DNA from: Candidatus Bathyarchaeota archaeon
GTDB lineage: Archaea > Thermoproteota > Bathyarchaeia > TCS64
Direction of reading: 5' to 3'
Length of the DNA: 64,000 bases
Assembly: GCA_026014815.1 (NCBI GenBank)
Contig: JAOZHP010000077.1
Coordinates: forward strand, 6,819 to 70,818
The translations under genes were made by a program, and so were the position numbers. The first letter of the stretch is position 1. Every line of letters begins with the position of its first letter. This document shows, one piece after another, positions 10,574-60,674 of this stretch. The notes beneath the pieces were generated by a model. The model saw only the letters and a program-made list of their open reading frames with translations. It made no database searches and was not told the DNA's origin.

Positions 10574-10577
10574 TAAT

Positions 10578-11168
10578 ATGGTCGAGGAGCTACTGGACGA
10601 TAAAAAGTTCATAGTTGTCCCTAAACGACTCGCTGATAGGGTTAAGCTTGTCTCAGGTCGGCTTGGTGGTAGTGTGACGGATTATGCCATTGAGGTGTTC
10701 ACTCAGGCTCTTCGTGTCGATGAGATGGGCTCAAACCTCAAGGAAGCCGTGGATGTATATCATCTTGTCACCGTTCAGCAGGGTGCAGGCAAAATCAACG
10801 TCACAAAAGCTAACATGGGGGAGATTCTCAGTAAGTTATCGTCCGATAAGGAGGGTGTCTTATCGCAGATATGGTACGAGTCAGGGAAGTGGTATGGAGC
10901 CTACCTCAGTGTCAAGCTGAAAGACGAGGATATTCTCGGTTTCCTTGAGACGGATCTGTTGTTGACGTGGAACCTTGACGAGGTGGAGATAAGGAAACAG
11001 GACTTGATGGTCACGATAAGGTGTACCTCGTTCACTATGTCTATGGAGTTAACTGATTTACTTGTGAATTATCTTGTTGGGTTGATGGAGGAACTTGGGT
11101 TCATTGAGAATGAGCGAGATGTTCTCAGAGGATTAGTTACTCTCAAGTTTTTAGGACAACTGAAGTAA
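10578..11168 (+). CDS. RHH-domain protein with uncharacterised C-terminal domain (paralog B of tandem pair)
   Basis: KFIVVPKRLADRVKLVSGRLGGSVTDYAIEVFTQAL is RHH-like. The C-terminal domain contains WYGAYL and related blocks aligned with paralog A. Confidence 0.45.
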   Translation: MVEELLDDKKFIVVPKRLADRVKLVSGRLGGSVTDYAIEVFTQALRVDEMGSNLKEAVDVYHLVTVQQGAGKINVTKANMGEILSKLSSDKEGVLSQIWYESGKWYGAYLSVKLKDEDILGFLETDLLLTWNLDEVEIRKQDLMVTIRCTSFTMSMELTDLLVNYLVGLMEELGFIENERDVLRGLVTLKFLGQLK

Positions 11169-21467: not shown

Positions 21468-22442
21468 TTAGCTTCTCTCCGCCTCTTTAAGTCGATCATT
21501 TATCTCTTGCAGTCTTAAAGCTAGGTTTCTGTCTATACGGGAGGCCCTTGACTGGAGTGCCTCCAGTTCTCTGATCTGGTCCTCCATGATCATTGTGATG
21601 AATCCTGCTCTGGTTCTGGTCCTCATGAATAACACAAGTGAGAGGATAAATAGGACCAGTAGTCCTCCCACCGCTGGAATGAAGTATTTCTCTTGGAAGC
21701 TTGGCCCGGTCTGTATAGGCGGGGCCTCTACTTCCAGTGTGTTCAGAAGATCCATGGCTGAGTCCACTAGTCCAAACTCTGCCTCGTCTTTGGCTAATGC
21801 AACAAAGTTCTCGTATAGCTGGATGTACGCAGGGTCTACATCGCTTTCTATATAGTCCTGCAGCTCCACTTCCTTCTGGCTGAGTATGAACTGGTAGTCA
21901 TCTATTTTGCTGTCTATGACATGTATCTCTATCTCGTCATAGATGCTATCAGCTGGGCCTATGAGCATCAGTATCGTCAGGTCCACGGGCCTGTGGAGAG
22001 CCACCGTTGTCCCCGCCGACGTTGTGAGGTCCTTGTCTATCTTTCCGATGATCGAGATCTCGTAGACCCCCATTGTGTGATTAAACATGATTCTTCGTTC
22101 TGATGGGTTAAAGTCATCAGTGAGTGGTAGGTCGATGGTCTCTATCTCCCAGAAGACCTCCTCTGACTGCTTCTCAATGGAGTTTGAGAGAATTAGTTCA
22201 AGGACGGCGTTGTCTACTGTTTGCCTCACGTTCAGGGTGAAGGTGAGGATATACTCGTCTCCCGCGAGTACCGGCGCGTTTTGAAGTAACTGACCGGTGT
22301 CTGATTGCCATGCCAGAACCATCTGGTTTGTGGCGTAGTTCTTCATGGTGAACTCCTCTATCCATGGTAGAGTCTGTCCCCTGACACCCATCGTTGGTGT
22401 GAGAAGAACAACTATGATTATGACAACGCAAAGTTTTCTCAC
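21468..22442 (-). CDS. Single-pass membrane protein: signal peptide, roughly 240-aa extracytoplasmic domain, TM helix, cytoplasmic coiled-coil tail; first gene of the operon with the FtsZ-like GTPase
   Basis: MRKLCVVIIIVVLLTPTMGVRG is signal-peptide-like. AVGGLLVLFILSLVLFM is a TM helix. The tail IMEDQIRELEALQSRASRIDRNLALRLQEINDRLKEAERS is coiled-coil-like. TAA immediately followed by ATG of the next gene. Confidence 0.55.
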   Translation of the reverse strand: MRKLCVVIIIVVLLTPTMGVRGQTLPWIEEFTMKNYATNQMVLAWQSDTGQLLQNAPVLAGDEYILTFTLNVRQTVDNAVLELILSNSIEKQSEEVFWEIETIDLPLTDDFNPSERRIMFNHTMGVYEISIIGKIDKDLTTSAGTTVALHRPVDLTILMLIGPADSIYDEIEIHVIDSKIDDYQFILSQKEVELQDYIESDVDPAYIQLYENFVALAKDEAEFGLVDSAMDLLNTLEVEAPPIQTGPSFQEKYFIPAVGGLLVLFILSLVLFMRTRTRAGFITMIMEDQIRELEALQSRASRIDRNLALRLQEINDRLKEAERS

Positions 22443-27217: not shown

Positions 27218-28207
27218 ATGGCTATCTTGCCTGATGAGTATGTCCTAGGGGTTGATGGTGGGGGGACTTGGACTCGAAGCATCATCATGAGACTAGACGG
27301 GACAGTGTTGGGGAAAGGCAGCGCTGGGCCCTCAAACCCATTAACCATAGGAATGGATGCGGCTCTAGAGAACATCACTCAAGCAGTGGACGAAGCTAAG
27401 AGTGAAGCAGATGTAAAATCATTCAAAGCCAGCAGGCTAGGCCTCGCTGGGGGAGCCCGATCAGTCCTTGGAGACAGGATGGTGGAACGTCTCCCCGAGA
27501 ACTATGGGGATACAGGGATCATCTCTGACACTGAATCCGCGTTGGCTGGCTCCACAGGGTGTAGGCCCGGGGTCGTGGTGATAGCTGGCACGGGTTCTAA
27601 CGTGTATGGAAAGAACGCACAAGGCGAGGAGGCGAAGGCGGGGGGATGGGGATGGCGCCTCGGTGACGAGGGAAGCGGGTACACGATAGGCAAGAACGCG
27701 ATAATAGCAGCATTAGAGTATCATGATGGAAGAGGACCATACACGACGCTCAAGGAGAGCATCCTGAGATACCTCGAAATCAAAGACATTGAGGAAATCA
27801 TCGACTGGACCTATGACTCTGGACGCGAGCCCAGACACTTTGCTTCACTGGTCCCATTAGTTAAGGAAGCTGAGAAGAGTGGAGATAAGGTCGCCGCTAA
27901 GATCATGATGGAGGTTGGCGCCCAGCTAGGAGGTATCGCTCAGGTAGTAGTAAGGAGACTAGGACTAACGGGAGCTTTTCCTGTTGCGTATGTCGGCGGT
28001 GTATTCAAGCAACCCCTTTCCTACAACGTTGCATTTGAGGAGAAGGTTCGCCAAGTAGCCCCGGACTGTCAAATAATTGAGCCGTTGTTCTCTCCCACCG
28101 TTGGCTCGGCTCTTCTAGCCCTAATAGCTATGGGGATTGATGTAGATGACGACCTCCTCAACAACGTAAAGACGAGCTTCACTGGTAGAGGTGACGTGAA
28201 TGAGTAG
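27218..28207 (+). CDS. BadF/BadG/BcrA/BcrD-type ATPase sugar kinase (MurK/N-acetylglucosamine kinase-like)
   Basis: LGVDGGGTWTRS (ASKHA phosphate-1), IAGTGSNVYG (phosphate-2), GWGWRLGDEGSGYTIG. Overlaps murQ by 8 nt. Confidence 0.6.
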   Translation: MAILPDEYVLGVDGGGTWTRSIIMRLDGTVLGKGSAGPSNPLTIGMDAALENITQAVDEAKSEADVKSFKASRLGLAGGARSVLGDRMVERLPENYGDTGIISDTESALAGSTGCRPGVVVIAGTGSNVYGKNAQGEEAKAGGWGWRLGDEGSGYTIGKNAIIAALEYHDGRGPYTTLKESILRYLEIKDIEEIIDWTYDSGREPRHFASLVPLVKEAEKSGDKVAAKIMMEVGAQLGGIAQVVVRRLGLTGAFPVAYVGGVFKQPLSYNVAFEEKVRQVAPDCQIIEPLFSPTVGSALLALIAMGIDVDDDLLNNVKTSFTGRGDVNE

Positions 28208-29099
28208 AACAACTGAGCAACTGAACCCTGCATCGAAGGGGATAGACGAGAAGCCCATCAGGGAGATACTTGAAATCATCAACACCGAGGACTCCAAGAT
28301 AGCTGAAGCCATCAGAAAGGAGCTACCACAGATCGAGAAAGCGGTGGAGGCAATAGTGAACACTGTCAAGTCTGATGGAAGAGTCTTCTTAATGGGCGCA
28401 GGGACCAGTGGCAGACTGTGCATACTTGAGGCGTCCGAGATACCCCCCACCTTCGGCATCGACCCCGAGGTCATTCAGGGGGTAATAGCGGGCGGACTTG
28501 ACGCCCTACACGGGTCAGTGGAGACAGCGGAGGACCAATCCAATAAGGCTTGGAGCGATCTCCAGAGCCGAGGCTTCAACCAGCGTGACCTCCTAATGGC
28601 TCTATCAGCCTCAGGAAGTACTCCCTATGTGCTCGGCGCAGTGAAAGCCGCCAAAGAAATCAAAGCTAAGACCATAGGGGTGGCATGCAACAAGGGCACT
28701 CCACTGGGAGAGTTAGCTGACATCTCGGTCGAGCTTATAGTGGGTCCCGAGGTGGTGGCTGGCTCAACACGGATGAAGGCTGGGACTGCCCAGAAGATGG
28801 TGCTCAACATGATGAACACCTCAGCTATGGCAAAGCTGGGTCTTATCCATGATGGCTACATGGTGGGTGTTCAGGCATCCAACATTAAGCTCATGGACAG
28901 AAGCACCCGCATAGTGTCCAATATCGCTGAGATTAGCTATGAAGAAGCTCGAAAAGCCCTTGAGATCACCAAATATGACGTACGTGTTGCTTTACTCTAT
29001 GTCATGACAGGAATGACGATAGACGAGGCGAGAACCGCACTGAGCGACTGGAGGTCAGTAAGAGATGTTCTCAGGAAGAAAGGTGGCAATGTTGAGTAA
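28200..29099 (+). CDS. murQ: N-acetylmuramic acid 6-phosphate etherase (MurQ, SIS domain)
   Basis: GRVFLMGAGTSGRLCILEASEIPPTFG and SASGSTPYVLGAVKAAKE match MurQ-conserved blocks. About 300 aa. Confidence 0.85.
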   Translation: MSRTTEQLNPASKGIDEKPIREILEIINTEDSKIAEAIRKELPQIEKAVEAIVNTVKSDGRVFLMGAGTSGRLCILEASEIPPTFGIDPEVIQGVIAGGLDALHGSVETAEDQSNKAWSDLQSRGFNQRDLLMALSASGSTPYVLGAVKAAKEIKAKTIGVACNKGTPLGELADISVELIVGPEVVAGSTRMKAGTAQKMVLNMMNTSAMAKLGLIHDGYMVGVQASNIKLMDRSTRIVSNIAEISYEEARKALEITKYDVRVALLYVMTGMTIDEARTALSDWRSVRDVLRKKGGNVE

Positions 29100-29147
29100 C
29101 GTGAGGGGATATTATTATTTCTACAAGGCAGAAAGGAGGCATCTGCC

Positions 29148-30314
29148 CTGAGAGTCACGCCCGGAATAGATGTACTTCTAAAGGACCCGGATAAGCACCT
29201 CGGGCAAGCTAACATAGGTCTCGTCACCAATCCGACTGGTGTGACCAACGGGCTTGAGTCCACCATCGACGCGTTGCACAGATGCTCCAAGGTAAATCTT
29301 AGAGCCGTGTTTGGGCCTGAGCATGGAGCGAGAGGCGACGCGCAGGACGCTCTCAAGGTGTCTGGCCACGTGGACGCGTACACAGGGCTCCCTGTTCATA
29401 GCCTGTATGGTGATCACGAGAAGCCTACCGTTGAGATGCTGGAAGGCCTCGAAGCTCTGGTTTTTGATATACAGGATTGTGGCGCCCGGTTCTATACCTA
29501 TGTTTCAACTCTCACTCATTGCATGGAGGCTTCAGCAGAGCATGGCATACGTGTTGTTGTCCTTGATAGGCCCAACCCTTTGAACGGAGACGCGACCGAA
29601 GGCAACATATTGAAACCCGGTTTCAGGTCCTTCATCGGGTTACACCCAGTCCCTATCCGTCACGGCCTAACTGTCGGTGAGCTTGCCCAGTTCATCAATC
29701 AAGGTATCCAGTGTGATCTTCACGTGGTCGAGATGGAGGGATGGAGACGCGGAATGTGGTACGACGAGACCAGTTTACCGTGGATTCAGCCCAGCCCTAA
29801 CCTGCCCTCCCTTGACACAGCGACAGTGTACCCCGGCACATGCTTCTTCGAGGGAGTGAACGTCTCCGAGGGTAGAGGAACAACGCGGCCCTTCGAGTAC
29901 ATCGGTGCTCCATGGATCGATGGCAGAAGCTGGGCAGAGACCCTCAACAACACAGGTCTCCCCGGGGTGTGTTTCCGGAGCAGCCACTTCACCCCCACCT
30001 TCTGGAAATTCAAGGATGAAAGATGCGGAGGCGTACAGGTCCACGTAGTTGACAGGAAGTGTTTCAGACCAATGGAGACGGGTCTCCACCTTTTAACGAC
30101 GTTAATTCAGCTCTACCCGGACACTTTTAGCTTCAACGAGTCATCCTACGATAAGCGGCGCCACTTTGATCTCCTAGCAGGTACAGACACTCTAAGAGCA
30201 GACCTAATGGCCGGTGTCTCAGTCGAGGAGATCATGGCCTCCTGGATGCCTGAACTGGAGGAATACCGGGAGAAACGTAAAGAGCATCTGCTCTATGGAG
30301 GCGACGATGAATGA
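29148..30314 (+). CDS. namZ: DUF1343-family exo-beta-N-acetylmuramidase (NamZ/YbbC-like); start is non-canonical (CTG 29148 with AGGAGG 8 nt upstream, or ATA), as no ATG/GTG/TTG is available
   Basis: GIDVLL...IGLVTNPTGV, FGPEHGARGDAQDA, FDIQDCGARFYTYVST, LDRPNP and GRGTTRPFEYIGAP are all DUF1343 blocks in order. The frame is closed by the murQ TAA 16 codons upstream, and the first GTG (29241) lies inside a conserved block. Confidence 0.75.
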   Translation: MRVTPGIDVLLKDPDKHLGQANIGLVTNPTGVTNGLESTIDALHRCSKVNLRAVFGPEHGARGDAQDALKVSGHVDAYTGLPVHSLYGDHEKPTVEMLEGLEALVFDIQDCGARFYTYVSTLTHCMEASAEHGIRVVVLDRPNPLNGDATEGNILKPGFRSFIGLHPVPIRHGLTVGELAQFINQGIQCDLHVVEMEGWRRGMWYDETSLPWIQPSPNLPSLDTATVYPGTCFFEGVNVSEGRGTTRPFEYIGAPWIDGRSWAETLNNTGLPGVCFRSSHFTPTFWKFKDERCGGVQVHVVDRKCFRPMETGLHLLTTLIQLYPDTFSFNESSYDKRRHFDLLAGTDTLRADLMAGVSVEEIMASWMPELEEYREKRKEHLLYGGDDE

Positions 30315-31465
30315 GTGATAAAAAAACTTTCAGGGGAACCCTGGTGACACCCTTCAAAGTCATAAACGATGGGCAACTGGAGTTAGAAGGAGTCACCATA
30401 ACCTACGCTGGGCCCAGAAGAACGACATCAGGCAAGGTAAAAGATTACGGTGACAACATCATCACACCGGGGTTCATCGATATCCATATCCACGGCGGAG
30501 CCGGGTACGACGCAATGGACCCTGAACAAGAAGCCCTAAACAAGATCTCAGAGTACCTAGCAGGTGGGGGAGTGACAGGTTTCCTCGCCACAACCCAGAC
30601 CGCCCCACTCATCCAGACCCTAAATGCACTCAGAAGGATACGTGACGCAGTAAAAGCCGGAACCACCGGCGCTAAGCTTCTTGGGGCACATATGGAAGGA
30701 CCGTTTATCAGCCCTGTGAAAAAGGGGGCACAGCGAGAGTCTTCCATACGTTCACCTACAATCAATGAAATCGCTGAGGTGCTCCAAGTCTCAGATGGGG
30801 CGCTCAAGATTGTGACTCTCGCCCCCGAGGTAGAGGGAGCCGTCGAGGTTATCAGATGGCTCGCGGATCATGCTGTCGTTGTCTCCGCTGGGCACACTGA
30901 GTCGTCATACGAGGAGGCGTGTGAGGCGATCGATGCAGGTCTATCTCATATGAGTCACTTCTTTAACGGTATGCGGGGCTTCCATCACCGTGAACCCGGT
31001 GTAGTGGGTGCAGGCCTCATCGATGACAGAGTTACGGTAGAGCTGGTTGCCGACGGGCTTCACGTCCACCCCGCCGTACTCAGGCTCGCAGCTGTAGCCA
31101 AGGGGCCAAGCATGGTCGCCCTTGTCTCTGATTCAATAAAACCCGCTGGTCTACCTGACGGTGAGTATCAGATAGATGGCAGAACTTTGATTTTAGGGGG
31201 TGGATTAGTCAAGCTTCCCTCTGGGGTGATAGCCGGTAGCTCAATTCGACTGAACGACGCCGTGAGGAACATGGTGAACGTGGGGCTCCCATTATCGGAT
31301 GCTGTTCAGATGGCCACCGACACCCCTGCGAGGATTCTTGGGCTCACACCAAGAATGGGAAGACTTGAACCGGGAAGCGACGCCGATATCGTTGTCATGG
31401 ACCAGACTTACCGGGTTCTAGAGACCTTGGTGGACGGTGAAACCGTTTACAGGCTGAGTGACTAG
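30311..31465 (+). CDS. nagA: N-acetylglucosamine-6-phosphate deacetylase (NagA)
   Basis: GFIDIHIHGGAG, GAHMEGPF, SAGHTESSYEE, SHFFNGM, ALVSDS. ATGA overlap with namZ. TAG stop. Confidence 0.85.
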   Translation: MSDKKTFRGTLVTPFKVINDGQLELEGVTITYAGPRRTTSGKVKDYGDNIITPGFIDIHIHGGAGYDAMDPEQEALNKISEYLAGGGVTGFLATTQTAPLIQTLNALRRIRDAVKAGTTGAKLLGAHMEGPFISPVKKGAQRESSIRSPTINEIAEVLQVSDGALKIVTLAPEVEGAVEVIRWLADHAVVVSAGHTESSYEEACEAIDAGLSHMSHFFNGMRGFHHREPGVVGAGLIDDRVTVELVADGLHVHPAVLRLAAVAKGPSMVALVSDSIKPAGLPDGEYQIDGRTLILGGGLVKLPSGVIAGSSIRLNDAVRNMVNVGLPLSDAVQMATDTPARILGLTPRMGRLEPGSDADIVVMDQTYRVLETLVDGETVYRLSD

Positions 31466-31468
31466 GAG

Positions 31469-32659
31469 ATGAGAGACACTTATCGTAAGGTCACGGAGCT
31501 CCGAGAAAGAGAAACCAGAAGAATAATAGGGCTTATGTCAGGGACATCGGCGGACGGAGTCACCGCTGCACTCACAAGGATCACCGGAGCAGGGGAGCAA
31601 GCAACCATCAAACTCGAAGGATACAAGACATACCCCTACCATGACGAGGTACAACAACGCCTATTTACTCTATTCAACCCTAAGACAGGAACCGTAAGAG
31701 ACGCCTGTGAGCTGAACTTCGTCATCGGGGAAGCATTCGCGGACTCCGTTGAACGCATCTTGGCGGACACAGGGATCAATGTTAGCGACGTAGACCTTAT
31801 CGGCAGTCACGGTCAAACGATATGGCATCAACCAAAAACTAACCTAGTCGCAGGGCACAGTACACGTTCCACGCTTCAGATAGGTGAACCAGCAGTCATC
31901 TCATTCAAAACAGGTCTCCCAGTTATCGCTGACTTCAGGAAAGCAGACATCGTGGCTGGGGGCGAAGGCGCACCACTAACACCCTACCTCGACTACGTTC
32001 TCCATAGAGACCCCAAGGCAAATAGGGTACTGCAGAACATCGGGGGAATCGCTAACCTGACATACCTACCCAGCGGTGGATCACTTGACGACATAGTTGC
32101 ATTCGACACTGGACCGGGGAATATGATCATCGACGCAGTCGTGAAGAGGTACACGGGAGGCAGTCACGATGTTGATGGGGCTATCGCGAGACGCGGCGAG
32201 GTCCACCCTGTTCTTTTGGACAAACTATTGTCTCATATCTATTTCGCGTCGCGTGCTCCAAAGACCACTGGCAGGGAGATGTTCGGGGAGCATTATGCTG
32301 ATGAGATCATAAAGCAGGCCAAGAAGATGAGGGTATCCATGGAAGACGTGGTTGCCACTATCACGGCGCTGACCTTTGAATCAATAGCTCAGGCATACGA
32401 GACCCATCTACCCGGAGATGTTGACGAGATATACGTCTCAGGTGGTGGAGCGAGAAACCCTGTGCTCATGGAAGGCCTCAGGGATCGACTTGAGGCTCCC
32501 GTATACGAATACTCAGCCCTAGGGTTCCCTAGTGAGGCGAAGGAGGCGGTTCTCATGGCGTTGCTGGCGAACGAGCACGTGATGGGGGTCCCATGTAACG
32601 TACCTTCGGCTACCGGAGCCCAATCGAGAGTTGTTCTAGGTTGCTTAACATGGGTCTAA
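31469..32659 (+). CDS. anmK: Anhydro-N-acetylmuramic acid kinase (AnmK)
   Basis: IGLMSGTSADGV, DLIGSHGQTIWH, ADFRKADIVAGGEGAPL, FDTGPGNMIID. 396 aa. Confidence 0.85.
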   Translation: MRDTYRKVTELRERETRRIIGLMSGTSADGVTAALTRITGAGEQATIKLEGYKTYPYHDEVQQRLFTLFNPKTGTVRDACELNFVIGEAFADSVERILADTGINVSDVDLIGSHGQTIWHQPKTNLVAGHSTRSTLQIGEPAVISFKTGLPVIADFRKADIVAGGEGAPLTPYLDYVLHRDPKANRVLQNIGGIANLTYLPSGGSLDDIVAFDTGPGNMIIDAVVKRYTGGSHDVDGAIARRGEVHPVLLDKLLSHIYFASRAPKTTGREMFGEHYADEIIKQAKKMRVSMEDVVATITALTFESIAQAYETHLPGDVDEIYVSGGGARNPVLMEGLRDRLEAPVYEYSALGFPSEAKEAVLMALLANEHVMGVPCNVPSATGAQSRVVLGCLTWV

Positions 32660-53490: not shown

Positions 53491-56400
53491 ATGAGAACAA
53501 CGAGAAAATTACCCATTACTAAGCGAGTTATATCAATCATAGTGATAGGAATCTTACTCCTATCCTCAATCATACCAATAGCATTCGCGGCAACACCCCC
53601 AACTATACCCGGAAACGAGACTTACATGACCGTTGACGGCGTTCTCGATACAGACAGCTACATACTCTATCCCTACGAGGAAGAAAGCCTCAACATAGGC
53701 TTCTCCAAGTACGGCGAGATGATCAACCCCGATGCCGGGGTTGGACTAGAGTACAAAGGAATAGATGTCTTCGCCAACCCCAACGTTGTTCCAATGTCCA
53801 AATGGAGCAGCGGCTGGATAATGGACATACACTATATACAGCAGGGACACCTGCGGAACGTATGGGCGTACGCGCTTTTCAGCGACTTAGATCTATCAGC
53901 TGGACCCGCTGCCTTCGATGAGGGCTGGAAGGTCCTGCAGCAAACCAAGGACGCGGACACAAGCATCCCCGGCGAGCAGCACGGAGGACAACGAACCAAC
54001 GGAATCGCCGAGACTGACCCGATCCGTCTAATCTACGACGGACCAAGGAGATCTATTTACTTACTCAGGACCGTGATCAGCACTCCCGAGGATGAAGCTC
54101 TCATCGAGCTGACCATACAGCTGGTCTTCAATAAGGTCAAAAAGTACGTCATGGAGATCAAGGACATCAAACGAGTCGCAGACGACAAGTTCGAAGGCCC
54201 CTTCCAGATAGAGTTCAGCCAAAGAGGTCAATGGGACCTCGGCGACGAGGCAAACAGCCTCAGCTACGCAGAGTTCTACAACGGCCTAGAGACAAAGTAC
54301 AACAAACACCCATTCTACACGGTTGACACCGAGCTACCCGAAGGACAGGAACATGAGGTAACATACGACCTTGTCCAGATAATCGCAGACGACGAGGACT
54401 TGGTCGGCTTCGCGGCTTTCTGGCCTCAACTCATAAGCAAATGGGTGACCAACATCGACAGCGGCATAACGAGAATAGGCCGCGACAAGGAACCCAACTA
54501 CTTGACCACAATGGAAACCAAGGAACTAGTAGTCGATATATTAGAGCTACCCGACCTGAAGAAAGAAGAGGATAACTATTACTACATCTGGACAGACGCA
54601 GCGCCGACGGGACCAGACTCACTAGAGATAAGGTTCCCTGACGATACGTTGGTGGAGTACCCACGAGGCTTAGGGGAGTGGAGTGACCAGCCCTGGGTCT
54701 TCAAATGGGACGAAATAGCCGCCGACTGGATGGTGTTATACAGCCCAACCGACTGGATATGGGATGATGGACCCAACAAGGTTTACTTCCCATTCGGACA
54801 CTGGGAGCCAGGAGACAGCTTCAAACTAGTATACAAACGAACGATGATGGGCCACATAGAGCATGAGCCAGTTCCGCTATCTTGTATGGACGGCCTCTTT
54901 GAGGACGATGAAGTTGGGCTCTCCTTCGGGATGTTCGACGAGCCCAAGGTACCATACGTGTTCGCTGAATGGGACTTTGACCTAGATGTCTACGACCCGG
55001 ACAAGGCCTCAGGTCATTTCAGATGCATGTCACTGTACGGAATCACCGATAACAACGACGCAGTGGACCCTGATATGAACACCGACAACGAGTTCAAGAT
55101 CGACAAAGAGGTCATCTATCAACTCAACGAGGTCTTCAACCCATGGGACCTAAAGGACGCAGCCCACAAGGACACCTTCAGGTGGGCCCAGAAAGGTGAT
55201 AGCGACCCTATCACCCTCAAAGCACACTTGATGGACAAGTACGGCAACCTACGAGACTGCCTCGAAGGGAAGCACGTCCTATGTAAACCCGAGAAATGGG
55301 GAGAATACTGCGAAGACAGCGAGAAAGTGCTAATCTGGGACAGTCAAGGCGAGAGACTCCTCAAGAGAGACACAGAGTACACCTTTGACCCGGAGACGGG
55401 CGTGATAGATATCTTTGTACCCTTCTACGAGTACAAGGTACTCTACTCAACGATCCTGTTACCACCGCCAATGACATGGGACGAGACAGACTTTGGGCTC
55501 AGAACCATCAACACCACCACATATGGAATCGACCTGACAAGAGAGTTCACTAGAGACTATGTAGTCTGGACATTCGATTACGACCCAGCGACGATCCCCG
55601 TCCACAGCATGACCGCGGTGGACATCATCTTCAAGAGATGCGACGGCTCCGTGGTGCAGATCGGGTTCGCACCCGGCGAAACCGGTGGAGACATCCCCAT
55701 CATGAAGATATGGGATGGAAGCTGGAGCGGTATAATGGAACTGCCCGACGACATCATAGTAACCCCAGGCACCCTCAACGAAGAGCACTACGAGATAATG
55801 ATCCCGTACAAGTACTTCCTGGACCGTAAATGCCTAAGATGGGCCGCATACGTGCAGGCCGACTTCGACGAGCCTTACGGTGGATCACAGCAGATGGTGT
55901 TCCCATACGGATGGGGCAAGGCACCTCACGAGGACCCATGGAGCAATCCTCTACACAACCTCTACAACGATGGAGTATGCTGGCACAATGGAAGATGGGA
56001 GTGGCTGGTGATAGGCGAGCCATCCCTAGCCTCTGACTCCAGCGGCTCCGCGATGCTAACCGCTACGTGGGCCGACTGGAAGAACAAGGAGACATGGCTA
56101 AGCGCCCTGGACACCCAGTCACTGGATTGGGGACCCACCATACCCTACGTGTTGAGACCCATGGACGGCGACTTCAGAGACGACCTTGGAAGAGCACACC
56201 TCAAGGACGACTGGTGCACACCAGACAACTGGAACGGCGAGGAGATATACCCCTACGCCATCAGCAGCAGCAACATACTCGTCGTGGGTGGACCCATAGT
56301 CAACCTCGCGGCCGAGTACTTCAACGACTTCACAGACGCCTTCGTCTACAGCCAGTACGGTGATGGGTTCTACGCGCCTGGATGTTGGGCACGAACCACA

Positions 56401-56874
56401 CAACCATACTGGTCAGAGGACGTCTTCAACGACGTAACACCCGACGAACTATGGTACGACAGCGTGGACATACACGACGACATCGGGTACGCCATAATAT
56501 CCACATACAAGGACCTAAACGAGACAATCGGCTTCATCGTCTACGGCTACACAGCCGAGGACACCTACTACACATGCTACGCCCTCCGAGGAGGAGGACT
56601 ACCGTGGCTACAGGAGATACAGCCGGGAGTCACAACGGTACTCGTGGAGATGGACTATAAAGACCCCGACCTACACCCGGTAAGGTTCCACGTCAAGGAG
56701 TTCCTGGGACCCTTCACGGAGTGCACAGGAGCATACACCAGCTTCAAAGACGGAATCTACCATGACATGATCCTCTGCGGCACCGAGAACATAGAGTTCG
56801 AGGCAGAGTGCCTAGGCCTATGCTACAAACTCGTGGATATCGACTTCTGCGGACAGGTACACCCAGACCCATAA
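53491..56874 (+). CDS. Very large secreted protein (1127 aa) of unknown function, rich in Trp, Asp and Tyr with scattered Cys
   Basis: N-terminal signal peptide or TM segment VISIIVIGILLLSSIIPIAFAATPP. No further TM segment. No family recognised. Followed by a T9 terminator. Confidence 0.5.
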   Translation: MRTTRKLPITKRVISIIVIGILLLSSIIPIAFAATPPTIPGNETYMTVDGVLDTDSYILYPYEEESLNIGFSKYGEMINPDAGVGLEYKGIDVFANPNVVPMSKWSSGWIMDIHYIQQGHLRNVWAYALFSDLDLSAGPAAFDEGWKVLQQTKDADTSIPGEQHGGQRTNGIAETDPIRLIYDGPRRSIYLLRTVISTPEDEALIELTIQLVFNKVKKYVMEIKDIKRVADDKFEGPFQIEFSQRGQWDLGDEANSLSYAEFYNGLETKYNKHPFYTVDTELPEGQEHEVTYDLVQIIADDEDLVGFAAFWPQLISKWVTNIDSGITRIGRDKEPNYLTTMETKELVVDILELPDLKKEEDNYYYIWTDAAPTGPDSLEIRFPDDTLVEYPRGLGEWSDQPWVFKWDEIAADWMVLYSPTDWIWDDGPNKVYFPFGHWEPGDSFKLVYKRTMMGHIEHEPVPLSCMDGLFEDDEVGLSFGMFDEPKVPYVFAEWDFDLDVYDPDKASGHFRCMSLYGITDNNDAVDPDMNTDNEFKIDKEVIYQLNEVFNPWDLKDAAHKDTFRWAQKGDSDPITLKAHLMDKYGNLRDCLEGKHVLCKPEKWGEYCEDSEKVLIWDSQGERLLKRDTEYTFDPETGVIDIFVPFYEYKVLYSTILLPPPMTWDETDFGLRTINTTTYGIDLTREFTRDYVVWTFDYDPATIPVHSMTAVDIIFKRCDGSVVQIGFAPGETGGDIPIMKIWDGSWSGIMELPDDIIVTPGTLNEEHYEIMIPYKYFLDRKCLRWAAYVQADFDEPYGGSQQMVFPYGWGKAPHEDPWSNPLHNLYNDGVCWHNGRWEWLVIGEPSLASDSSGSAMLTATWADWKNKETWLSALDTQSLDWGPTIPYVLRPMDGDFRDDLGRAHLKDDWCTPDNWNGEEIYPYAISSSNILVVGGPIVNLAAEYFNDFTDAFVYSQYGDGFYAPGCWARTTQPYWSEDVFNDVTPDELWYDSVDIHDDIGYAIISTYKDLNETIGFIVYGYTAEDTYYTCYALRGGGLPWLQEIQPGVTTVLVEMDYKDPDLHPVRFHVKEFLGPFTECTGAYTSFKDGIYHDMILCGTENIEFEAECLGLCYKLVDIDFCGQVHPDP

Positions 56875-56900
56875 CCCTCTCCCCTTTTTTTTTATATTCG
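56875..56900. terminator. Oligo-T terminator (CCCCTTTTTTTTTAT)
   Basis: A 9-T run immediately follows the TAA of the 1127-aa gene. Confidence 0.5.
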
Positions 56901-56944: not shown

Positions 56945-58171
56945 TTGTCTGAAAGGCAACTGCTGGTAAGCAAGATAGAGAACGGAATAGTAATCGACCA
57001 CATCCCGGCGGGTAAAGCCTTCCAAGTACTCAAGCTACTCAAACTCCCAGATGACGCAAGGGCACTGGTAGCCCAGAACGTAGACAGCGAAAGCATGGAA
57101 GCCAAGGACCTCATCAAGATCGAGGGAAGCTACCTCACAAGCAGCGAGATAGACATCATAGCCTTCGTGGCCCCCAACGCCACACTCAACAACATCGAGA
57201 ACTGGCAGGTCAAGGAGAAACGCGTCATCACCCTCCCCGAGAAGATCGAGGGCGCGTTCAACTGCCCAAACACTCTTTGCCCCACCAACACCAGATACAC
57301 GGCGCCAAACACCAGCTTCACAGTCGAGGCAGGGAAACAACTAGAGGAGACCAAGCTCCACTGCATCTACTGCGGAAGCATCACCTACTATGGCACCATC
57401 CAGGAGAACATACAGAGCGAGAGCTTCAGGATCGAGCGCAGAGGCCTCGTAAGCAAGGAAAAGATCGAGGAAGTCTTCCTAGACATGTTAATCCAAGGGG
57501 GAGCCCTCAGGTTCTCCCGGAGCCCCGAGGAGCCATTCATCCTCAAGAGTGGCAGACCAAGCCCATACTTCATCAACCTAGGCGCCCTCACCGACGGAGA
57601 GAGCCTTGCCAAACTAAAATGGGCGTTCGCAAGCTACATCGCCCTCCTCAGGGAGCAGGGCAAGATAACCGACTTCGACTACGTGTTCGGGCCAAGCTAC
57701 AAGGGCATCAGCCTCGCCGCCCTCACATGCGAAGGACTCAACGAGCTATACGGAATGGATATGAGGTACATGTACGACCGCAAGGAGGCCAAGGAGTACG
57801 GCGACATGAGCTCAGACAAAGTGCTGGTAGGCGCCAACTACTTCCAGCCAGGGCAACGCCTCCTCGTGGTGGACGACACCATAACCACGGGACTAACCAA
57901 AGTAGAGACCCTCGAGAAACTCAGGTTACTCGGGGACCACGAGGTAGTGGGAATGGTGATAGCGGTGGACAGGCAGGAGGCGCTGGGCGACAAGGACAAT
58001 GTCGAGGAGCAGAGCGCCGTCCAGTACCTGGAAGAGGAGCTAGGCATACCCGTTTTCAGTATTCAGAACATCCAAAGCATCTTCAACCTCATAAAGGACA
58101 GCATCGGAGACGACATCAAAAAACTCTGGGTCGATTATTACAGCAAGTACGGTATCGTGGACTTGGATTAA
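56945..58171 (+). CDS. Fusion of aspartate carbamoyltransferase regulatory chain (PyrI) with orotate phosphoribosyltransferase (PyrE)
   Basis: N-terminus: IENGIVIDHIPAG, KDLIKIEGS, APNATLNNI, CPNTLCPTN...CIYCGS (PyrI allosteric and Zn domains). C-terminus: FILKSGRPSPYFINLG, FGPSYKGISLAA, YDRKEAKEYGD, LLVVDDTITTG, VDRQEALG (PyrE). TTG start. Confidence 0.8.
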   Translation: MSERQLLVSKIENGIVIDHIPAGKAFQVLKLLKLPDDARALVAQNVDSESMEAKDLIKIEGSYLTSSEIDIIAFVAPNATLNNIENWQVKEKRVITLPEKIEGAFNCPNTLCPTNTRYTAPNTSFTVEAGKQLEETKLHCIYCGSITYYGTIQENIQSESFRIERRGLVSKEKIEEVFLDMLIQGGALRFSRSPEEPFILKSGRPSPYFINLGALTDGESLAKLKWAFASYIALLREQGKITDFDYVFGPSYKGISLAALTCEGLNELYGMDMRYMYDRKEAKEYGDMSSDKVLVGANYFQPGQRLLVVDDTITTGLTKVETLEKLRLLGDHEVVGMVIAVDRQEALGDKDNVEEQSAVQYLEEELGIPVFSIQNIQSIFNLIKDSIGDDIKKLWVDYYSKYGIVDLD

Positions 58172-58207: not shown

Positions 58208-59590
58208 ATGGAGAATTTTGACGTCCTCGTGGTGGGCAGCGGCTCAGGGATGATGATAGCCAACGCCGCCGTCAACGCGGGCATGAAAGTGGCCTTGGTG
58301 GAGAAAGGCCTCATGGGAGGTACCTGCCTCAACACCGGGTGCATCCCAAGCAAGATGGTCATCTACCCAGCCGACATTGTCAACCAGATCAAGCACGCCG
58401 AGAGGCTAGGCATCCACGCAAAGATAGAAAGGATTGACTTCGCCGGAATCATGCGGAGGACAAGGGAGTTCGTGGCACACGACCGTAAAACCATGGAAGA
58501 CGCCGTCCCCCACATAGATGGACTCACCTTCTATCCAGAGCAAGGAGAGTTCATCGACGATTACACCATGAAAGTCGGGAATAAGACCATCAAAGCAGAA
58601 AACATTTTCCTCGCATCAGGGTCCCGGCCCCATATACCACCCACAAAAGGTCTCAGCGATGTGGATTATCTCACAAACAGGAACGTCTGGGACCTAGATG
58701 AGGCACCCGAGAGCATGATCATTGTCGGAGGCGGCTTCATCGCCGCTGAGATGGCTCACTTCTTCAGCAGCATGGGCGTCGAGGTCACAGTCCTCAGCAG
58801 AAGCCCACGGCTCCTCAAGCACAGTGAACCCGAGGTCTCAGAGATACTCACTGCCTCCCTCAGACAACGAATACACATAGAGACAGGCATCGAGATGACA
58901 GAGGTCAAAAAGAAAGACAGAGGCATAGAGGTCACCGCGGTCCGAGACGGGCAACCCCACAAGTATCAGGCGGAACAACTCTTCGTTGCCACCGGCAGGG
59001 TAAGCAACGCTGACATCCTCAAGGTGGAGAAGACGGGAGTCGAGGTCGATGAAAGAGGATACATCAAGGTCGACAAGAGCTACCAGACCACGAAGCAGCG
59101 GATATGGGCCTTCGGTGACGCCATAGGAAAGGCAATGTTCAGGCATGTGGCAAACCAGGAGGCACAGCTAGTCTGGCAAGAGTTCAGTGGAGGCCACCCA
59201 CACACAATGGACTACGACAAGGTGCCTTACGCGGTGTTCAGTTGGCCCCAGGTAGCGTCGGTAGGGCTCACGGAGGCCGAAGCGACGCGTCGAGGACTAA
59301 GTTTCAGGATAGGAGAGTACAACTACATTGACACGGCGAAGGGCGCCGCGATGAACGAGGAGGACGGATACGTGAAGATAGTCTTGGAAGCCGAGACATA
59401 CAGGATACTGGGAGCCAGCATCATCGGTCCCTACTCGCCGATACTGATACAGGAAGTCATCAACGTAATGTACGCCGGAGATGGCTCAGTGTACCCCATC
59501 GCTGAGGCGATGCACATCCACCCCGCGCTTCCCGAAGTCGTCCAGAGAGCCATCTACAACCTCAGGGACACTGGGCATCACCACGCGTGA
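58208..59590 (+). CDS. Class-I FAD-dependent pyridine nucleotide-disulfide oxidoreductase (dihydrolipoyl dehydrogenase/glutathione-reductase family)
   Basis: VVGSGSGMM is the FAD-binding GxGxxG, GGTCLNTGCIPSK is the redox-active CxxxxC, and HIHPALPE the C-terminal dimerisation motif. Confidence 0.75.
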   Translation: MENFDVLVVGSGSGMMIANAAVNAGMKVALVEKGLMGGTCLNTGCIPSKMVIYPADIVNQIKHAERLGIHAKIERIDFAGIMRRTREFVAHDRKTMEDAVPHIDGLTFYPEQGEFIDDYTMKVGNKTIKAENIFLASGSRPHIPPTKGLSDVDYLTNRNVWDLDEAPESMIIVGGGFIAAEMAHFFSSMGVEVTVLSRSPRLLKHSEPEVSEILTASLRQRIHIETGIEMTEVKKKDRGIEVTAVRDGQPHKYQAEQLFVATGRVSNADILKVEKTGVEVDERGYIKVDKSYQTTKQRIWAFGDAIGKAMFRHVANQEAQLVWQEFSGGHPHTMDYDKVPYAVFSWPQVASVGLTEAEATRRGLSFRIGEYNYIDTAKGAAMNEEDGYVKIVLEAETYRILGASIIGPYSPILIQEVINVMYAGDGSVYPIAEAMHIHPALPEVVQRAIYNLRDTGHHHA

Positions 59591-59630
59591 TGCTTAAATA
59601 AACTCCTTCAACTGGTTCTCACAGATTCTG

Positions 59631-60113
59631 GTGAGCCAATTGACGACATTAAAGATAGGCGACGACGCCCCCGAGTTCTGCCTCCCTGACGCTGAGAAGG
59701 GGGAGGTCTGTCTGAAGGACCTGAAAGGAAAATGGATTGTCCTCTACTTTTACCCAAAGGACAACACCAAGGGATGCACACTTGAAGCCCTGGACTTCAC
59801 GGCGGCCGAGGACGAGTTCAACGAGAGAGGAACCGTTATTCTCGGCGTGAGCCCAGACTCCCCAGAAAGCCACACCAAGTTCATCGAGAAACATGAACTC
59901 GGGATAACCCTCCTCAGCGACACAGAGAAAAAGATACTTGAGAGCTACGGCGCCTGGCAGCTCAAGAAGATGTATGGACGCGAGTTCATGGGGGTCGTGA
60001 GGAGCACATACCTAATCGACCCGGAAGGCAAGATAGCGTACATCTGGCCCAAAGTCAGGGTCAAGGAACACGCGGATAAGGTGATGGCGAAGCTGGTGGA
60101 GCTTCAGGGTTGA
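59631..60113 (+). CDS. Peroxiredoxin, Bcp/PrxQ type
   Basis: LYFYPKDNTKGCTLEA resembles the Bcp active-site context. 160 aa. GTG start. Confidence 0.7.
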   Translation: MSQLTTLKIGDDAPEFCLPDAEKGEVCLKDLKGKWIVLYFYPKDNTKGCTLEALDFTAAEDEFNERGTVILGVSPDSPESHTKFIEKHELGITLLSDTEKKILESYGAWQLKKMYGREFMGVVRSTYLIDPEGKIAYIWPKVRVKEHADKVMAKLVELQG

Positions 60114-60117
60114 TTAC

Positions 60118-60674
60118 ATGAACGTCACTGATGCCATCCATGAACGAAGAGCCTACCGGAGCCTTGAGCCGGCTGAGATCAACCCGAGCTTGTGAACGAC
60201 CTAGCGACACACGCAGCCCTCGCGGCGTCATGCAACAACTACCAGCCATGGCGTTACGTTTTCGTCTACGAGAAAGATCAGTTAGAGAAGATGTGGACCG
60301 CCCTCAGCAGGGGCAACAAGTGGGTCGAGCTGGCATCCATGATCATAGCTGTGTTCAGTCGCGAGGAAGATGATTGCGTCATCCGGAGTAGAGTGTACCA
60401 TCACTTCGATGTTGGTATGGCTACGGCTCATCTTATTCTACGTGCCACAGAGCTTGGGCTTGTCGCTCACCCCATCGCTGGTTTCAAGCCGAAACGTGTC
60501 AGGGAGGTGCTTGGAATACCTGATGAGTACCAGGTTATCACGTTGGTCAACGTAGGGAAGAAGTCACCTGAGATACATCCATACCTCACCGAGGAACAGG
60601 CGGGTAGGGAAAAAGAGCGACCTAAACGGAAACCCCTTAACGAGTTTGCGTTCCACAACAAGTACTCAGGATAG
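60118..60674 (+). pseudogene. Nitroreductase-family protein with an apparent 1-nt frameshift in a C-run (about 60183-60187) splitting the N-terminal 25 codons from the body
   Basis: Frame 1 from ATG 60118 gives MNVTDAIHERRAYRSLEPAEINPSL then stops. Frame 0 continues (D)QPELVNDLATHAALAASCNNYQPWRYVFV, the nitroreductase N-terminal pattern (R..R.F....I....L...L.AA..APS..N.QPW.F.V). Confidence 0.55.

What the first reader, a model, noticed from the sequence alone, without database searches (positions are those of the whole stretch)
56945..58171. Fusion of PyrI (ATCase regulatory chain) to PyrE (orotate phosphoribosyltransferase) with no pyrB nearby
Both halves carry their full signature sets: the PyrI allosteric domain and Cys4 zinc domain, and the PyrE PRPP-binding loop and flexible loop. 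PyrI normally exists only as a non-covalent partner of PyrB. Covalent fusion to a different pyrimidine-pathway enzyme suggests either nucleotide (CTP/ATP) allosteric control grafted onto OPRTase or a bridging scaffold between ATCase and OPRTase. I am not aware of this architecture being described.
Basis: partly seen in the sequence, partly recalled or inferred. Interest (0 to 1): 0.65.

Follow-up and report, generated by a model that had tools for sequence, protein, structure and literature searches.

The report
ATCase regulatory chain fused to OPRTase
An uncultured sediment archaeon (Bathyarchaeia) encodes one protein joining the nucleotide-sensing regulatory subunit of aspartate carbamoyltransferase to a complete orotate phosphoribosyltransferase; hundreds of relatives share this real, conserved, undescribed architecture, which may couple two steps of pyrimidine synthesis.

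Summary
Window 56945-58171 (+) is one uninterrupted 408-aa ORF. Residues 1-147 are a complete PyrI (allosteric domain plus Cys4 zinc domain). About 22 residues of linker follow, then a complete long-type PyrE (171-408). It is not a frameshift artefact: more than 80 independent contigs carry the same continuous ORF, and both halves are under purifying selection (dN/dS about 0.2).

The architecture is abundant but narrow. There are at least 548 clusters at 90% identity, and the named ones are all Bathyarchaeota or Thermoproteota. A search of 1.84 billion cluster representatives found only one full-length representative. I found no paper and no curated model for it, and databases label it as PyrI or as PyrE.

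No pyrB or other pyr gene lies in the window or in about 0.98 Mb of related flanks. In the main clade every canonical PyrI position and every OPRTase catalytic residue is invariant. Divergent clades have a decaying PyrI half, and a neighbouring short PyrE paralogue has lost its catalytic lysines.

My best reading (about 0.5) is an active OPRTase that also still serves as the ATCase regulatory chain. The main rival (about 0.3) is a nucleotide-regulated OPRTase acting without PyrB. I could not determine whether pyrB or a separate pyrI exists in these genomes. This is a new variant of known kinds, of moderate interest.

The parts
56945..58171 (+). Complete CDS of the PyrI-PyrE fusion protein (408 aa, TTG start, TAA stop)
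   Evidence: ORF and sequence. (120 best homologues, all about 408 aa at 100% coverage). (80 loci matching residues 1-408).
56945..57241 (+). PyrI allosteric (nucleotide-binding) domain, aa 1-99. The equivalents of E. coli I12, D19, H20, K56, K60, T82, N84, V91 and K94 are present; Y89 is replaced by W.
   Evidence: PF01948, E 6.5e-29. (alignment to E. coli 1d09_B). (77 of 77 sequences invariant at D18, H19, K54, K58, N82 and K92). (dN/dS 0.17).
57242..57385 (+). PyrI zinc domain, aa 100-147. The Cys4 site is C107, C112, C140 and C143, with the surface motif CPNxLCPTN.
   Evidence: PF02748 above cutoff. (all four Cys 77 of 77; N109 and N115 77 of 77; T114 76 of 77; P108 76 of 77). (every position conserved in standalone PyrI is kept). 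(dN/dS 0.35).
57386..57454 (+). Linker, aa 148-170. It has a short predicted helix (149-157) followed by a low-confidence stretch, and it is the least conserved part.
   Evidence: pLDDT below 50 at residues 164-168. (61% identity within the clade, 27% between clades). (dN/dS 0.39).
57455..58168 (+). Long-type (E. coli/yeast-like) orotate phosphoribosyltransferase domain, aa 171-408
   Evidence: yeast Ura5, 7e-33, residues 172-403. (TIGR00336, 106.1 bits). (TM 0.85 to 2prz). (52% identity, no gaps, to a standalone 241-aa PyrE inside a pyr operon). (dN/dS 0.21).
57779..57838 (+). OPRTase flexible catalytic loop, aa 279-298 (RKEAKEYGD...). It carries the equivalents of E. coli R99, K100 and K103.
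   Evidence: alignment. (R279, K280 and K283 in 77 of 77). (pLDDT below 50 at 281-298, as expected for a mobile loop).
57860..57898 (+). PRPP-binding loop LLVVDDTITTGLT, aa 306-318
   Evidence: motif hit at 57860. (D310, D311, T314 and T315 in 77 of 77; G316 in 76 of 77).
56891..56898 (+). TTTATATT, a possible archaeal TATA box about 50 nt upstream of the start codon. It follows the T-run that ends the upstream gene. This is inferred from the sequence only.
   Evidence: sequence read directly. No tool here models archaeal promoters.
58208..60674 (+). Conserved downstream neighbours on the same strand: a pyridine-nucleotide-disulphide oxidoreductase (58208-59590), a Bcp/AhpC-type peroxiredoxin (59631-60113) and a nitroreductase (60192-60674). 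These are context, not shown to be functionally linked.
   Evidence: Pfam. (same order in L001 and L101). (present in 33, 27 and 34 of the 40 loci that have enough downstream sequence).

Best explanation
The gene encodes a genuine bifunctional protein that is specific to Bathyarchaeia.

Shown: it is a single ORF kept intact on many independent contigs, with both halves under purifying selection.

Strongly inferred: the C-terminal half is a catalytically competent OPRTase that converts orotate and PRPP to OMP. It is of the long E. coli/yeast type and should dimerise like other OPRTases. In the divergent clades it is the only PyrE at the locus with intact catalytic lysines.

Inferred: in the main clade, which includes this window, the N-terminal half is a fully canonical ATCase regulatory chain. 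It should bind CTP, UTP or ATP in the allosteric pocket and hold a structural zinc.

Weakly inferred, but my preferred mechanism: the zinc-domain surface that docks standalone PyrI onto PyrB is conserved residue for residue. I therefore think the protein still serves as the regulatory subunit of an ATCase encoded elsewhere in the genome. An ATCase holoenzyme would then carry OPRTase domains tethered by linkers of about 22 residues. Step 2 and step 5 of UMP synthesis would share one complex and one nucleotide signal.
For: The fusion is real: 80 of 80 loci full length; dN/dS 0.17 and 0.21 for the two halves.

The OPRTase half looks competent. K201, R204, Y252, K253, R279, K280, K283, D310, D311, T314, T315 and R343 are invariant in 77 of 77 sequences, and G316 is kept in 76 of 77. 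They are also kept in the 49%-identical clades. The fold matches yeast OPRTase at TM 0.85. Its nearest standalone relative (52% identity, no gaps) lies in a complete pyrF/pyrE-pyrB-pyrI/pyrC-pyrD operon.

The PyrI half is canonical. All 13 standalone PyrI sequences I compared, including E. coli, share a set of conserved positions. The main clade keeps every one of them with the same or a conservatively replaced residue. These include the nucleotide site (D18, H19, K54, K58, T80, N82, K92), the Cys4 site and the zinc-domain surface (P108, N109, T114, N115, F125, Y142); the substitutions are I to P at 113, L to F at 74 and V to I at 95. The only established role of the zinc domain is to dock onto PyrB (established knowledge of E. 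coli ATCase).

No closer standalone PyrI was seen. In a search of 1.84 billion representatives the best PyrI-only hits are at most 50% identical. The four I traced sit in pyrB-pyrI operons of other archaea: one is related to Staphylothermus and three are unidentified.

The neighbouring short PyrE in the divergent clades has lost its catalytic lysines and its SGK motif. This points to the fused PyrE as the working enzyme there.
Against: I never saw a pyrB gene from a fusion-bearing genome. None lies within 10 kb either side in more than 84 loci, about 0.98 Mb in total. Whether these genomes have pyrB, or a separate pyrI, is therefore unknown.

One clade (L096/L097) has lost three of the four zinc cysteines and five nucleotide-site residues yet keeps the fusion. 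PyrB docking therefore cannot be the reason the fusion persists everywhere.

The zinc domain and linker evolve faster than the rest (dN/dS 0.35-0.39).

Bathyarchaeia also have a separate short PyrE, so the fused PyrE may not be the only OPRTase in main-clade genomes.

The AlphaFold2 model gives no confident arrangement between the domains (pTM 0.58). I could not model a complex with PyrB.
Confidence: 0.5

Rival explanations
1. The protein is a self-contained, nucleotide-regulated OPRTase. The PyrI module has been re-used in cis. CTP, UTP or ATP binding to the allosteric domain is passed through the zinc domain and linker to the fused OPRTase dimer, and the protein never touches PyrB.
For: The gene is never linked to pyrB in more than 84 loci. 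In ordinary archaeal relatives pyrI directly follows pyrB. The nucleotide pocket is invariant in the main clade. The fusion persists in a clade that has lost the zinc ligands. PyrI and PyrE are each homodimeric (established knowledge), so a closed dimer is plausible.
Against: This model gives no reason for the zinc-domain surface residues that standalone PyrI uses against PyrB (N109, T114, N115, P108, Y142) to stay identical to those of standalone PyrI. AlphaFold2 predicts no confident contact between the PyrI and PyrE halves (pTM 0.58, low pLDDT in the linker). To my knowledge no OPRTase is known to be allosterically controlled by pyrimidine nucleotides.
Confidence: 0.3
2. The protein is simply an OPRTase with a vestigial N-terminal domain derived from PyrI. 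That domain serves only for folding or dimerisation and has no regulatory role.
For: In the L096/L097 clade the PyrI half has lost three cysteines and D18, K54, K58, N82 and K92, while the PyrE half stays intact. In the P0121 clade K58 is replaced by alanine.
Against: In the main clade, which includes this window, the PyrI half has the lowest dN/dS of all regions (0.17). Every ligand-binding residue is invariant in 77 of 77 sequences. That pattern does not fit a vestigial domain.
Confidence: 0.1
3. The protein is an ATCase regulatory chain with an added sensor. The PyrE-like half binds PRPP, orotate or OMP as a signal that modulates ATCase and is not the cell's OPRTase. That role belongs to the separate short PyrE.
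For: Bathyarchaeia carry a separate short-type PyrE. PRTase folds have been re-used as ligand sensors or regulators elsewhere, for example in PyrR and GfcR (PMC10838023; weak hit to NF045507).
Against: All OPRTase catalytic residues, including the loop lysines that binding alone would not need, are invariant in every fusion clade. It is the short PyrE that degenerates when the two genes are neighbours. The closest standalone relative sits in a biosynthetic pyr operon.
Confidence: 0.05
4. The fusion is an assembly or sequencing artefact, in which two adjacent genes (pyrI and pyrE) were merged by a missed stop codon or frameshift.
For: None was found.
Against: The same continuous frame appears in 80 of 80 metagenome loci from many samples, on NCBI, ENA, JGI and Logan contigs, and in two clades only 49% identical to the window protein. 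The linker contains conserved residues (L168, S170, I174, E175).
Confidence: 0.01

Closest known systems
Standalone PyrI, the regulatory (r) chain of class B ATCase (E. coli, Sulfolobus acidocaldarius 1PG5_B, M. jannaschii 2YWW)
   Same: It has the same two-domain layout (allosteric domain plus Cys4 zinc domain), the same nucleotide-site residues and the same zinc-domain surface motif. Identity is 36-43% and TM is 0.79.
   Different: The fusion carries a 260-residue C-terminal extension containing a whole enzyme. Its gene is not next to pyrB. It scores below the TIGR00240 equivalog cutoff (131 against 148.6 bits).
Long-type OPRTase (S. cerevisiae Ura5 2PRZ/2PS1, E. coli and Salmonella PyrE 1ORO/1LH0)
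   Same: It has the same fold (TM 0.85-0.86) and the same catalytic set: K26, Y72/K73, R99/K100/K103, D124/D125 and R156 in E. coli numbering. The C-terminal helices are also shared.
   Different: A PyrI module is fused at the N terminus. E. coli H105 is replaced by Tyr. The score sits 0.7 bits under the TIGR00336 cutoff.
Bifunctional PyrB-PyrI proteins (NCBIfam NF009916 / PRK13376)
   Same: They set the precedent that PyrI can be covalently fused to another pyrimidine-pathway protein. The fusion's PyrI half matches the C-terminal part of this model (residues 8-152, E 1e-13).
   Different: In those proteins the partner is PyrB itself and PyrI is the C-terminal part. Here the partner is PyrE, PyrI is N-terminal, and there is no OTCase domain.
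Multi-enzyme proteins and complexes of pyrimidine synthesis: CAD, UMP synthase (PyrE-PyrF or PyrF-PyrE, e.g. NF004034, Leishmania 3QW4), and ATCase-DHOase complexes (own knowledge)
   Same: The general logic is the same: pathway steps are joined physically. OPRTase is often the fused partner.
   Different: Those cases join consecutive steps, or join PyrB with PyrC. None joins the ATCase regulatory chain to OPRTase, and steps 2 and 5 are not consecutive, so substrate channelling is not an obvious benefit.
PRTase-fold regulators (PyrR; archaeal GfcR / 'PyrE-like protein' PRK02277)
   Same: They use a PRTase fold in a regulatory setting. The fusion gives weak hits to them (E 1e-7 to 1.6e-5).
   Different: Those proteins have a DNA- or RNA-binding function or domain and usually altered active sites. 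The fusion has neither a helix-turn-helix domain nor altered catalytic residues.

Membership tests
PyrI, ATCase regulatory chain (PF01948 + PF02748; TIGR00240) | N-terminal allosteric domain | tested here: met
   PF01948 scores 100.4 bits against a cutoff of 25. The fold matches Sulfolobus PyrI at TM 0.79.
PyrI, ATCase regulatory chain (PF01948 + PF02748; TIGR00240) | C-terminal zinc domain with four Cys ligands | tested here: met
   PF02748 scores 26.7 bits against a cutoff of 23.4. C107, C112, C140 and C143 are invariant in 77 of 77 sequences. Three of the four are lost in the L096/L097 clade.
PyrI, ATCase regulatory chain (PF01948 + PF02748; TIGR00240) | Nucleotide-site residues (E. coli D19, K56, K60, T82, N84, K94) | tested here: met
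   All are present and are invariant or nearly so in the main clade. Actual binding was not measured.
PyrI, ATCase regulatory chain (PF01948 + PF02748; TIGR00240) | Score above the curated equivalog threshold | tested here: not met
   TIGR00240 scores 131.1 bits against a cutoff of 148.55. NF002063 scores 99.8 against 171.
PyrI, ATCase regulatory chain (PF01948 + PF02748; TIGR00240) | Forms a complex with the PyrB catalytic trimers | not testable with these tools
   No PyrB from a fusion-bearing genome could be retrieved, and no multimer modelling was available. The conserved surface residues are only indirect support.
PyrE, orotate phosphoribosyltransferase (TIGR00336; PF00156) | PRPP-binding loop (acidic pair followed by T-T-G) | tested here: met
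   LLVVDDTITTG at residues 306-316. D310, D311, T314 and T315 are invariant in 77 of 77 sequences and G316 is kept in 76 of 77.
PyrE, orotate phosphoribosyltransferase (TIGR00336; PF00156) | Flexible catalytic loop with R99, K100 and K103, plus K26, K73 and R156 (E. coli numbering) | tested here: met
   R279, K280, K283, K201, K253 and R343 are present in 77 of 77 sequences and in the divergent clades.
PyrE, orotate phosphoribosyltransferase (TIGR00336; PF00156) | Type I PRTase fold with the OPRTase hood | tested here: met
   Foldseek gives TM 0.85 to 2prz_A and 0.86 to 1lh0_B.
PyrE, orotate phosphoribosyltransferase (TIGR00336; PF00156) | Score above the curated thresholds | tested here: inconclusive
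   TIGR00336 scores 106.1 bits against a cutoff of 106.8, so it is 0.7 bits short. PF00156 scores 21 against 26.3. The 49%-identical P0121 passes TIGR00336 with 117.4 bits.
PyrE, orotate phosphoribosyltransferase (TIGR00336; PF00156) | OPRTase activity | not testable with these tools
   This needs an enzyme assay or genetic complementation.
Bifunctional PyrB-PyrI (NF009916) | OTCase/ATCase catalytic domains (PF02729 + PF00185) in the same chain | tested here: not met
   There is no OTCace hit. NF009916 scores 50.7 bits against a cutoff of 800, and only its PyrI part matches.
UMP synthase-type fusions (PyrF-PyrE, NF004034) | OMP decarboxylase domain in the same chain | tested here: not met
   There is no OMPdecase hit. 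NF004034 scores 26.4 bits against a cutoff of 656.

The most novel reading that the evidence does not exclude
In Bathyarchaeia the fusion is the only ATCase regulatory chain. It docks onto PyrB trimers through its zinc domain, so the ATCase dodecamer carries six tethered OPRTase domains, probably as three dimers. This would be a previously unseen ATCase-OPRTase super-complex. One nucleotide-binding module would control both the committed step (step 2) and the PRPP-consuming step (step 5) of UMP synthesis. The resident short-type PyrE would be released to degenerate or take on another role.
Probability: 0.3. Interest if true: 0.75.

Novelty: new variant of a known kind. Interest (0 to 1): 0.55.

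Why it matters
ATCase is the textbook allosteric enzyme, and its regulatory chain has been seen only free or fused to PyrB. A natural fusion to a different pathway enzyme, conserved across a globally abundant uncultured archaeal class, points to one of two things. Either OPRTase can be placed under direct nucleotide control, which to my knowledge is not known for any OPRTase, or steps 2 and 5 of UMP synthesis are assembled into one regulated complex.

Both ideas can be tested directly by expressing a single 46-kDa protein. The finding also has a practical side. Hundreds of database entries are labelled with only one of the two functions. Pathway reconstructions for Bathyarchaeia can therefore wrongly score pyrE or pyrI as missing, or wrongly count the degenerate short PyrE as the working enzyme.

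Tried and rejected
The tool used exact 8-residue peptides and returned only two non-fusion relatives. I therefore obtained no list of GTDB species genomes with the fusion, and no second scan was allowed for pyrB.

2. I tried to reach a Bathyarchaeia PyrB through the standalone PyrI sequences closest to the fusion. L007 turned out to be a relative of Staphylothermus, and the PyrB search from it returned only Desulfurococcales, Sulfolobales and similar groups. L088, L089 and L098 also show no Bathyarchaeia affinity.

3. I tried to show co-occurrence by matching contig lengths between fusion hits and PyrB or short-PyrE hits. No lengths matched.

4. Organism names from the listing of cluster members were mostly empty.

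5. Six literature searches found nothing on this architecture. The supplement of the Bathyarchaeum tardum paper (PMC10477458) lists gaps only in the dTTP and GTP modules. It does not list the UMP module among the gaps, which is only indirect evidence that the class has de novo UMP synthesis.

6. The afdb50 fold library was not available.

7. Readings I considered and rejected: a frameshift artefact; a UMP-synthase-like or PyrB-PyrI-like protein, because the required domains are absent; and a GfcR or PyrR-like regulator, because there is no nucleic-acid-binding domain and the active site is intact.
Full report
**What is in the window.** Window 56945-58171 (+) is a single 408-aa ORF with a TTG start. 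An overlapping 314-aa ORF in another frame is Arg/Pro/Gly-rich and is an out-of-frame artefact.

- Pfam finds the PyrI allosteric domain (residues 7-94, E 6.5e-29) and the PyrI zinc domain (100-147, above its cutoff). It also gives a sub-threshold PRTase hit at 243-352.
- NCBIfam gives TIGR00240 (ATCase regulatory subunit) on 4-145 and TIGR00336 (pyrE) on 186-377, at 106.1 bits against a cutoff of 106.8.
- Against PDB sequences, residues 172-403 align to yeast OPRTase (7e-33) and residues 3-152 to PyrI of Sulfolobus, Moritella, M. jannaschii and E. coli.
- An AlphaFold2 model built on 57 homologues has mean pLDDT 78.9. Confidence is low only at the N terminus, a short zinc-domain loop (117-119), the linker (164-168) and the OPRTase mobile loop (281-298).
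- Foldseek matches the C-terminal half to yeast OPRTase (TM 0.85) and the N-terminal half to Sulfolobus PyrI (TM 0.79). No PDB chain covers both halves.

**It is not an artefact.** The 120 best homologues among 548 hits are all about 408 aa, cover 100% of the query, and are 70-81% identical. A metagenome scan found 290 relatives. The 80 loci kept all match residues 1 (or 2) to 403-408 in one frame, on contigs of up to 644 kb from many samples. Codon analysis of 77 of these genes gives dN/dS of 0.17 for the allosteric domain, 0.35 for the zinc domain, 0.39 for the linker and 0.21 for PyrE. Both halves are therefore maintained by selection.

**Distribution.** Where sources name the hits, they are Candidatus Bathyarchaeota or Thermoproteota archaeon. 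The proteins are labelled either 'aspartate carbamoyltransferase regulatory subunit' or 'orotate phosphoribosyltransferase', never both.

An exhaustive HMMER pass over 1.84 billion cluster representatives found only one full-length representative: P0121, 409 aa and 49% identical. The other hits were fragments, PyrE-only proteins or PyrI-only proteins. The architecture is thus abundant but confined to one lineage. I saw three further forms:
- the P0121 clade (L006);
- a 404-aa clade (L096/L097);
- fragmentary sequences of a fourth form (P0132 and P0140).

No NCBIfam model exists for the combination, and six literature searches found nothing.

**Residue-level state of the two halves.** In 77 main-clade sequences the equivalents of E. 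coli PyrI D19, H20, K56, K60, N84 and K94 are invariant, as are the four zinc cysteines. So are the OPRTase residues equivalent to K26, Y72/K73, R99/K100/K103, D124/D125, T128 and R156.

I compared these with 13 diverse standalone PyrI sequences, including E. coli. Every position that is at least 75% conserved in the standalone set is kept with the same or a conservatively replaced residue in the main-clade fusion. This includes the zinc-domain surface positions P108, N109, T114, N115, F125 and Y142. The substitutions are Ile to Pro at 113, Leu to Phe at 74 and Val to Ile at 95. In E. coli ATCase the zinc domain is the part of the r chain that contacts the catalytic chain (established knowledge). 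This pattern is what one expects if PyrB docking is retained.

The divergent clades differ:
- P0121 has K58A.
- L096/L097 has D18N, K54E, K58L, N82T, K92E and has lost three of the four cysteines (C107S, C112Y, C140R).
- In both, the PyrE half keeps its whole catalytic set.

**Genomic context.** The 64-kb window has no pyrB. Across about 0.98 Mb of Bathyarchaeia-like DNA around the fusion and around the short pyrE, tblastn finds no pyrB, pyrC, pyrD or pyrF. It likewise finds no pyrG and no standalone pyrI in the 0.92 Mb around the fusion.

In contrast, the standalone PyrI sequences most similar to the fusion sit directly after pyrB:
- in a Staphylothermus-like pyrG-F-E-B-I-K-C-D operon (L007);
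- in a carA-carB-pyrB-pyrI cluster (L088);
- in pyrE-pyrB-pyrI clusters of low-GC archaea (L089 and L098).

L098 is the most informative. Its 241-aa PyrE is 52% identical, without gaps, to the fusion's PyrE half. Its PyrI is 43% identical and has the same extended zinc-domain loop. The nearest free relatives of both halves therefore occur together in one complete pyr operon. This supports a biosynthetic role for this PyrE subtype and suggests where the fusion came from.

In the main clade the gene is followed at about 40 bp by a pyridine-nucleotide-disulphide oxidoreductase, then a Bcp-type peroxiredoxin and a nitroreductase. These are present in 33, 27 and 34 of 40 loci respectively. The upstream flank varies. 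A TATA-like TTTATATT lies about 50 nt upstream of the start codon (this is inference only).

**A second PyrE.** In L006 the divergent fusion lies head-to-head with a 208-aa short-type pyrE-like gene. L096 and L097 have the same arrangement. Homologues of this short PyrE are widespread and are named Candidatus Bathyarchaeia or Bathyarchaeota. They sit in a conserved LarA-MBL-pyrE-TBP-S26 locus on contigs of up to 1.5 Mb.

Their catalytic motifs vary a great deal:
- some are canonical (RKEAKTHGR);
- a large group reads RKG[VA]RLHGR, with the second loop lysine replaced by arginine;
- the copies next to the fusion are degenerate. The SGK motif is replaced by GEAW or DDRW, and the loop reads RTEATTHGR (RMEATTHGR in L006 itself) or RKEPAVRGR.

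Where the two genes are neighbours, then, the free PyrE is the one decaying and the fused PyrE is the one preserved. I could not establish whether main-clade genomes such as this one also carry a short PyrE.

**Interpretation.**

*Shown:* this is a real, selected fusion restricted to one lineage.

*Strongly inferred:* the PyrE half is an active OPRTase.

*Inferred:* in the main clade the PyrI half binds nucleotide and zinc.

The open question is what the PyrI half regulates.

I favour, at about 0.5, that it still docks on a PyrB encoded elsewhere, so that ATCase carries tethered OPRTase. The reason is that the PyrB-contacting surface is conserved exactly as in free PyrI, and no closer free PyrI was found. 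The main rival, at about 0.3, is an OPRTase regulated in cis without PyrB. It is supported by the complete lack of linkage to pyrB and by the survival of the fusion in a clade without zinc ligands.

The minor rivals are as follows.
- A vestigial N-terminal domain (about 0.1) is plausible only for the divergent clades.
- A non-catalytic PyrE sensor (about 0.05) is contradicted by the invariant catalytic lysines.
- An artefact (about 0.01) is excluded.

**What I could not do.**
- My PyrB search landed in other archaeal orders.
- I therefore never saw a pyrB, or a full gene inventory, from a fusion-bearing genome.
- The only hint that the class makes UMP de novo is that the B. tardum genome paper lists gaps in the dTTP and GTP modules but not in the UMP module (PMC10477458).
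- Multimer modelling and the AlphaFold database library were unavailable.

**Verdict.** The finding is a genuine and apparently undescribed domain architecture, built from two well-known modules in a major uncultured archaeal class. It is a new variant of known kinds rather than something categorically new. The interest is moderate and the hypotheses are cleanly testable.

Noticed in passing
window 58208-60674 (+): A pyridine-nucleotide-disulphide oxidoreductase, a Bcp/AhpC peroxiredoxin and a nitroreductase follow the fusion on the same strand, with a gap of about 40 bp. This order is kept in 33, 27 and 34 of 40 main-clade loci, although the neighbours have diverged to 52-81% identity. It could be an operon or only inherited synteny. 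The short gap contains a T-run and a TATA-like TTTTTATT, which would fit a leaderless internal promoter.
   Followed up: partly
L006 9148-9777 (-); L096 5391-6014 (+); L097 9860-10483 (+): A short-type PyrE paralogue lies head-to-head with the divergent fusion and has lost catalytic motifs. SGK is replaced by GEAW or DDRW, and the loop RKxxKxHG by RMEATTHG or RKEPAVRG. It is probably a pseudo-enzyme or has a new function.
   Followed up: partly
L091, L092 and L095, about 10001-10636 (+): Bathyarchaeia-wide short PyrE sits in a conserved RadA-fumarase-LarA-MBL-pyrE-TBP-S26 locus. The largest subgroup has RKG[VA]RLHGR, meaning the second catalytic loop lysine is arginine. Its activity is uncertain.
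   Followed up: partly
L096 3956-5170 (-); L097 8425-9639 (-) (GCA_975905455.1): This is a 404-aa variant of the fusion. Its PyrI half has lost three of the four zinc cysteines and five nucleotide-site residues, while the PyrE half is intact.
   Followed up: partly
P0132 (262 aa) and P0140 (204 aa), on short contigs: These are fragments of a further, more divergent form of the PyrI-PyrE fusion (40-46% identity). They read DHISP/DHIEP instead of DHIPAG and C(D/K)NP(T/S)C(A/S)S(R/K) instead of CPNxLCPTN.
   Followed up: no
L098 3948-7119 (+) and L099: A low-GC (about 35%) archaeal operon reads pyrF<- ->pyrE(241 aa)-OTCase-like(327 aa)-pyrB-pyrI<-pyrC<-pyrD. It holds the closest standalone relatives of both halves of the fusion, plus a second OTCase-family gene only 26% identical to PyrB. 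The organism was not identified.
   Followed up: partly
window 27218-32659 (+): This is a cluster typical of bacterial MurNAc / anhydro-MurNAc recycling. It contains a BadF/BcrAD-type ATPase, a SIS (MurQ-like) protein, the exo-beta-N-acetylmuramidase NamZ, an amidohydrolase and the AnmK kinase. It sits between the XPD-like helicase and the M20 peptidase, which are adjacent in the related locus L001. It may be an acquired route for using peptidoglycan.
   Followed up: partly
window 18798-22442 (-): An 888-aa protein has an N-terminal Tubulin_2/tubulin-FtsZ GTPase domain. It is followed by a 323-aa protein with no Pfam match. The same pair occurs in L001.
   Followed up: no
window 53491-56874 (+): A 1127-aa protein lies directly upstream of the fusion. 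It has a hydrophobic N-terminal segment and no Pfam match at E<=0.001.
   Followed up: no
window 36160-56874: About 21 kb of genes lies between the S49/NfeD peptidase gene and the fusion. The genes include TPR, MFS, Fe-ADH, amidase, GNAT, DEAD helicase, a PKD-domain protein, PhzF and GT4. In L001 the same interval holds only a 92-aa ORF. The upstream flank is therefore a variable region.
   Followed up: partly
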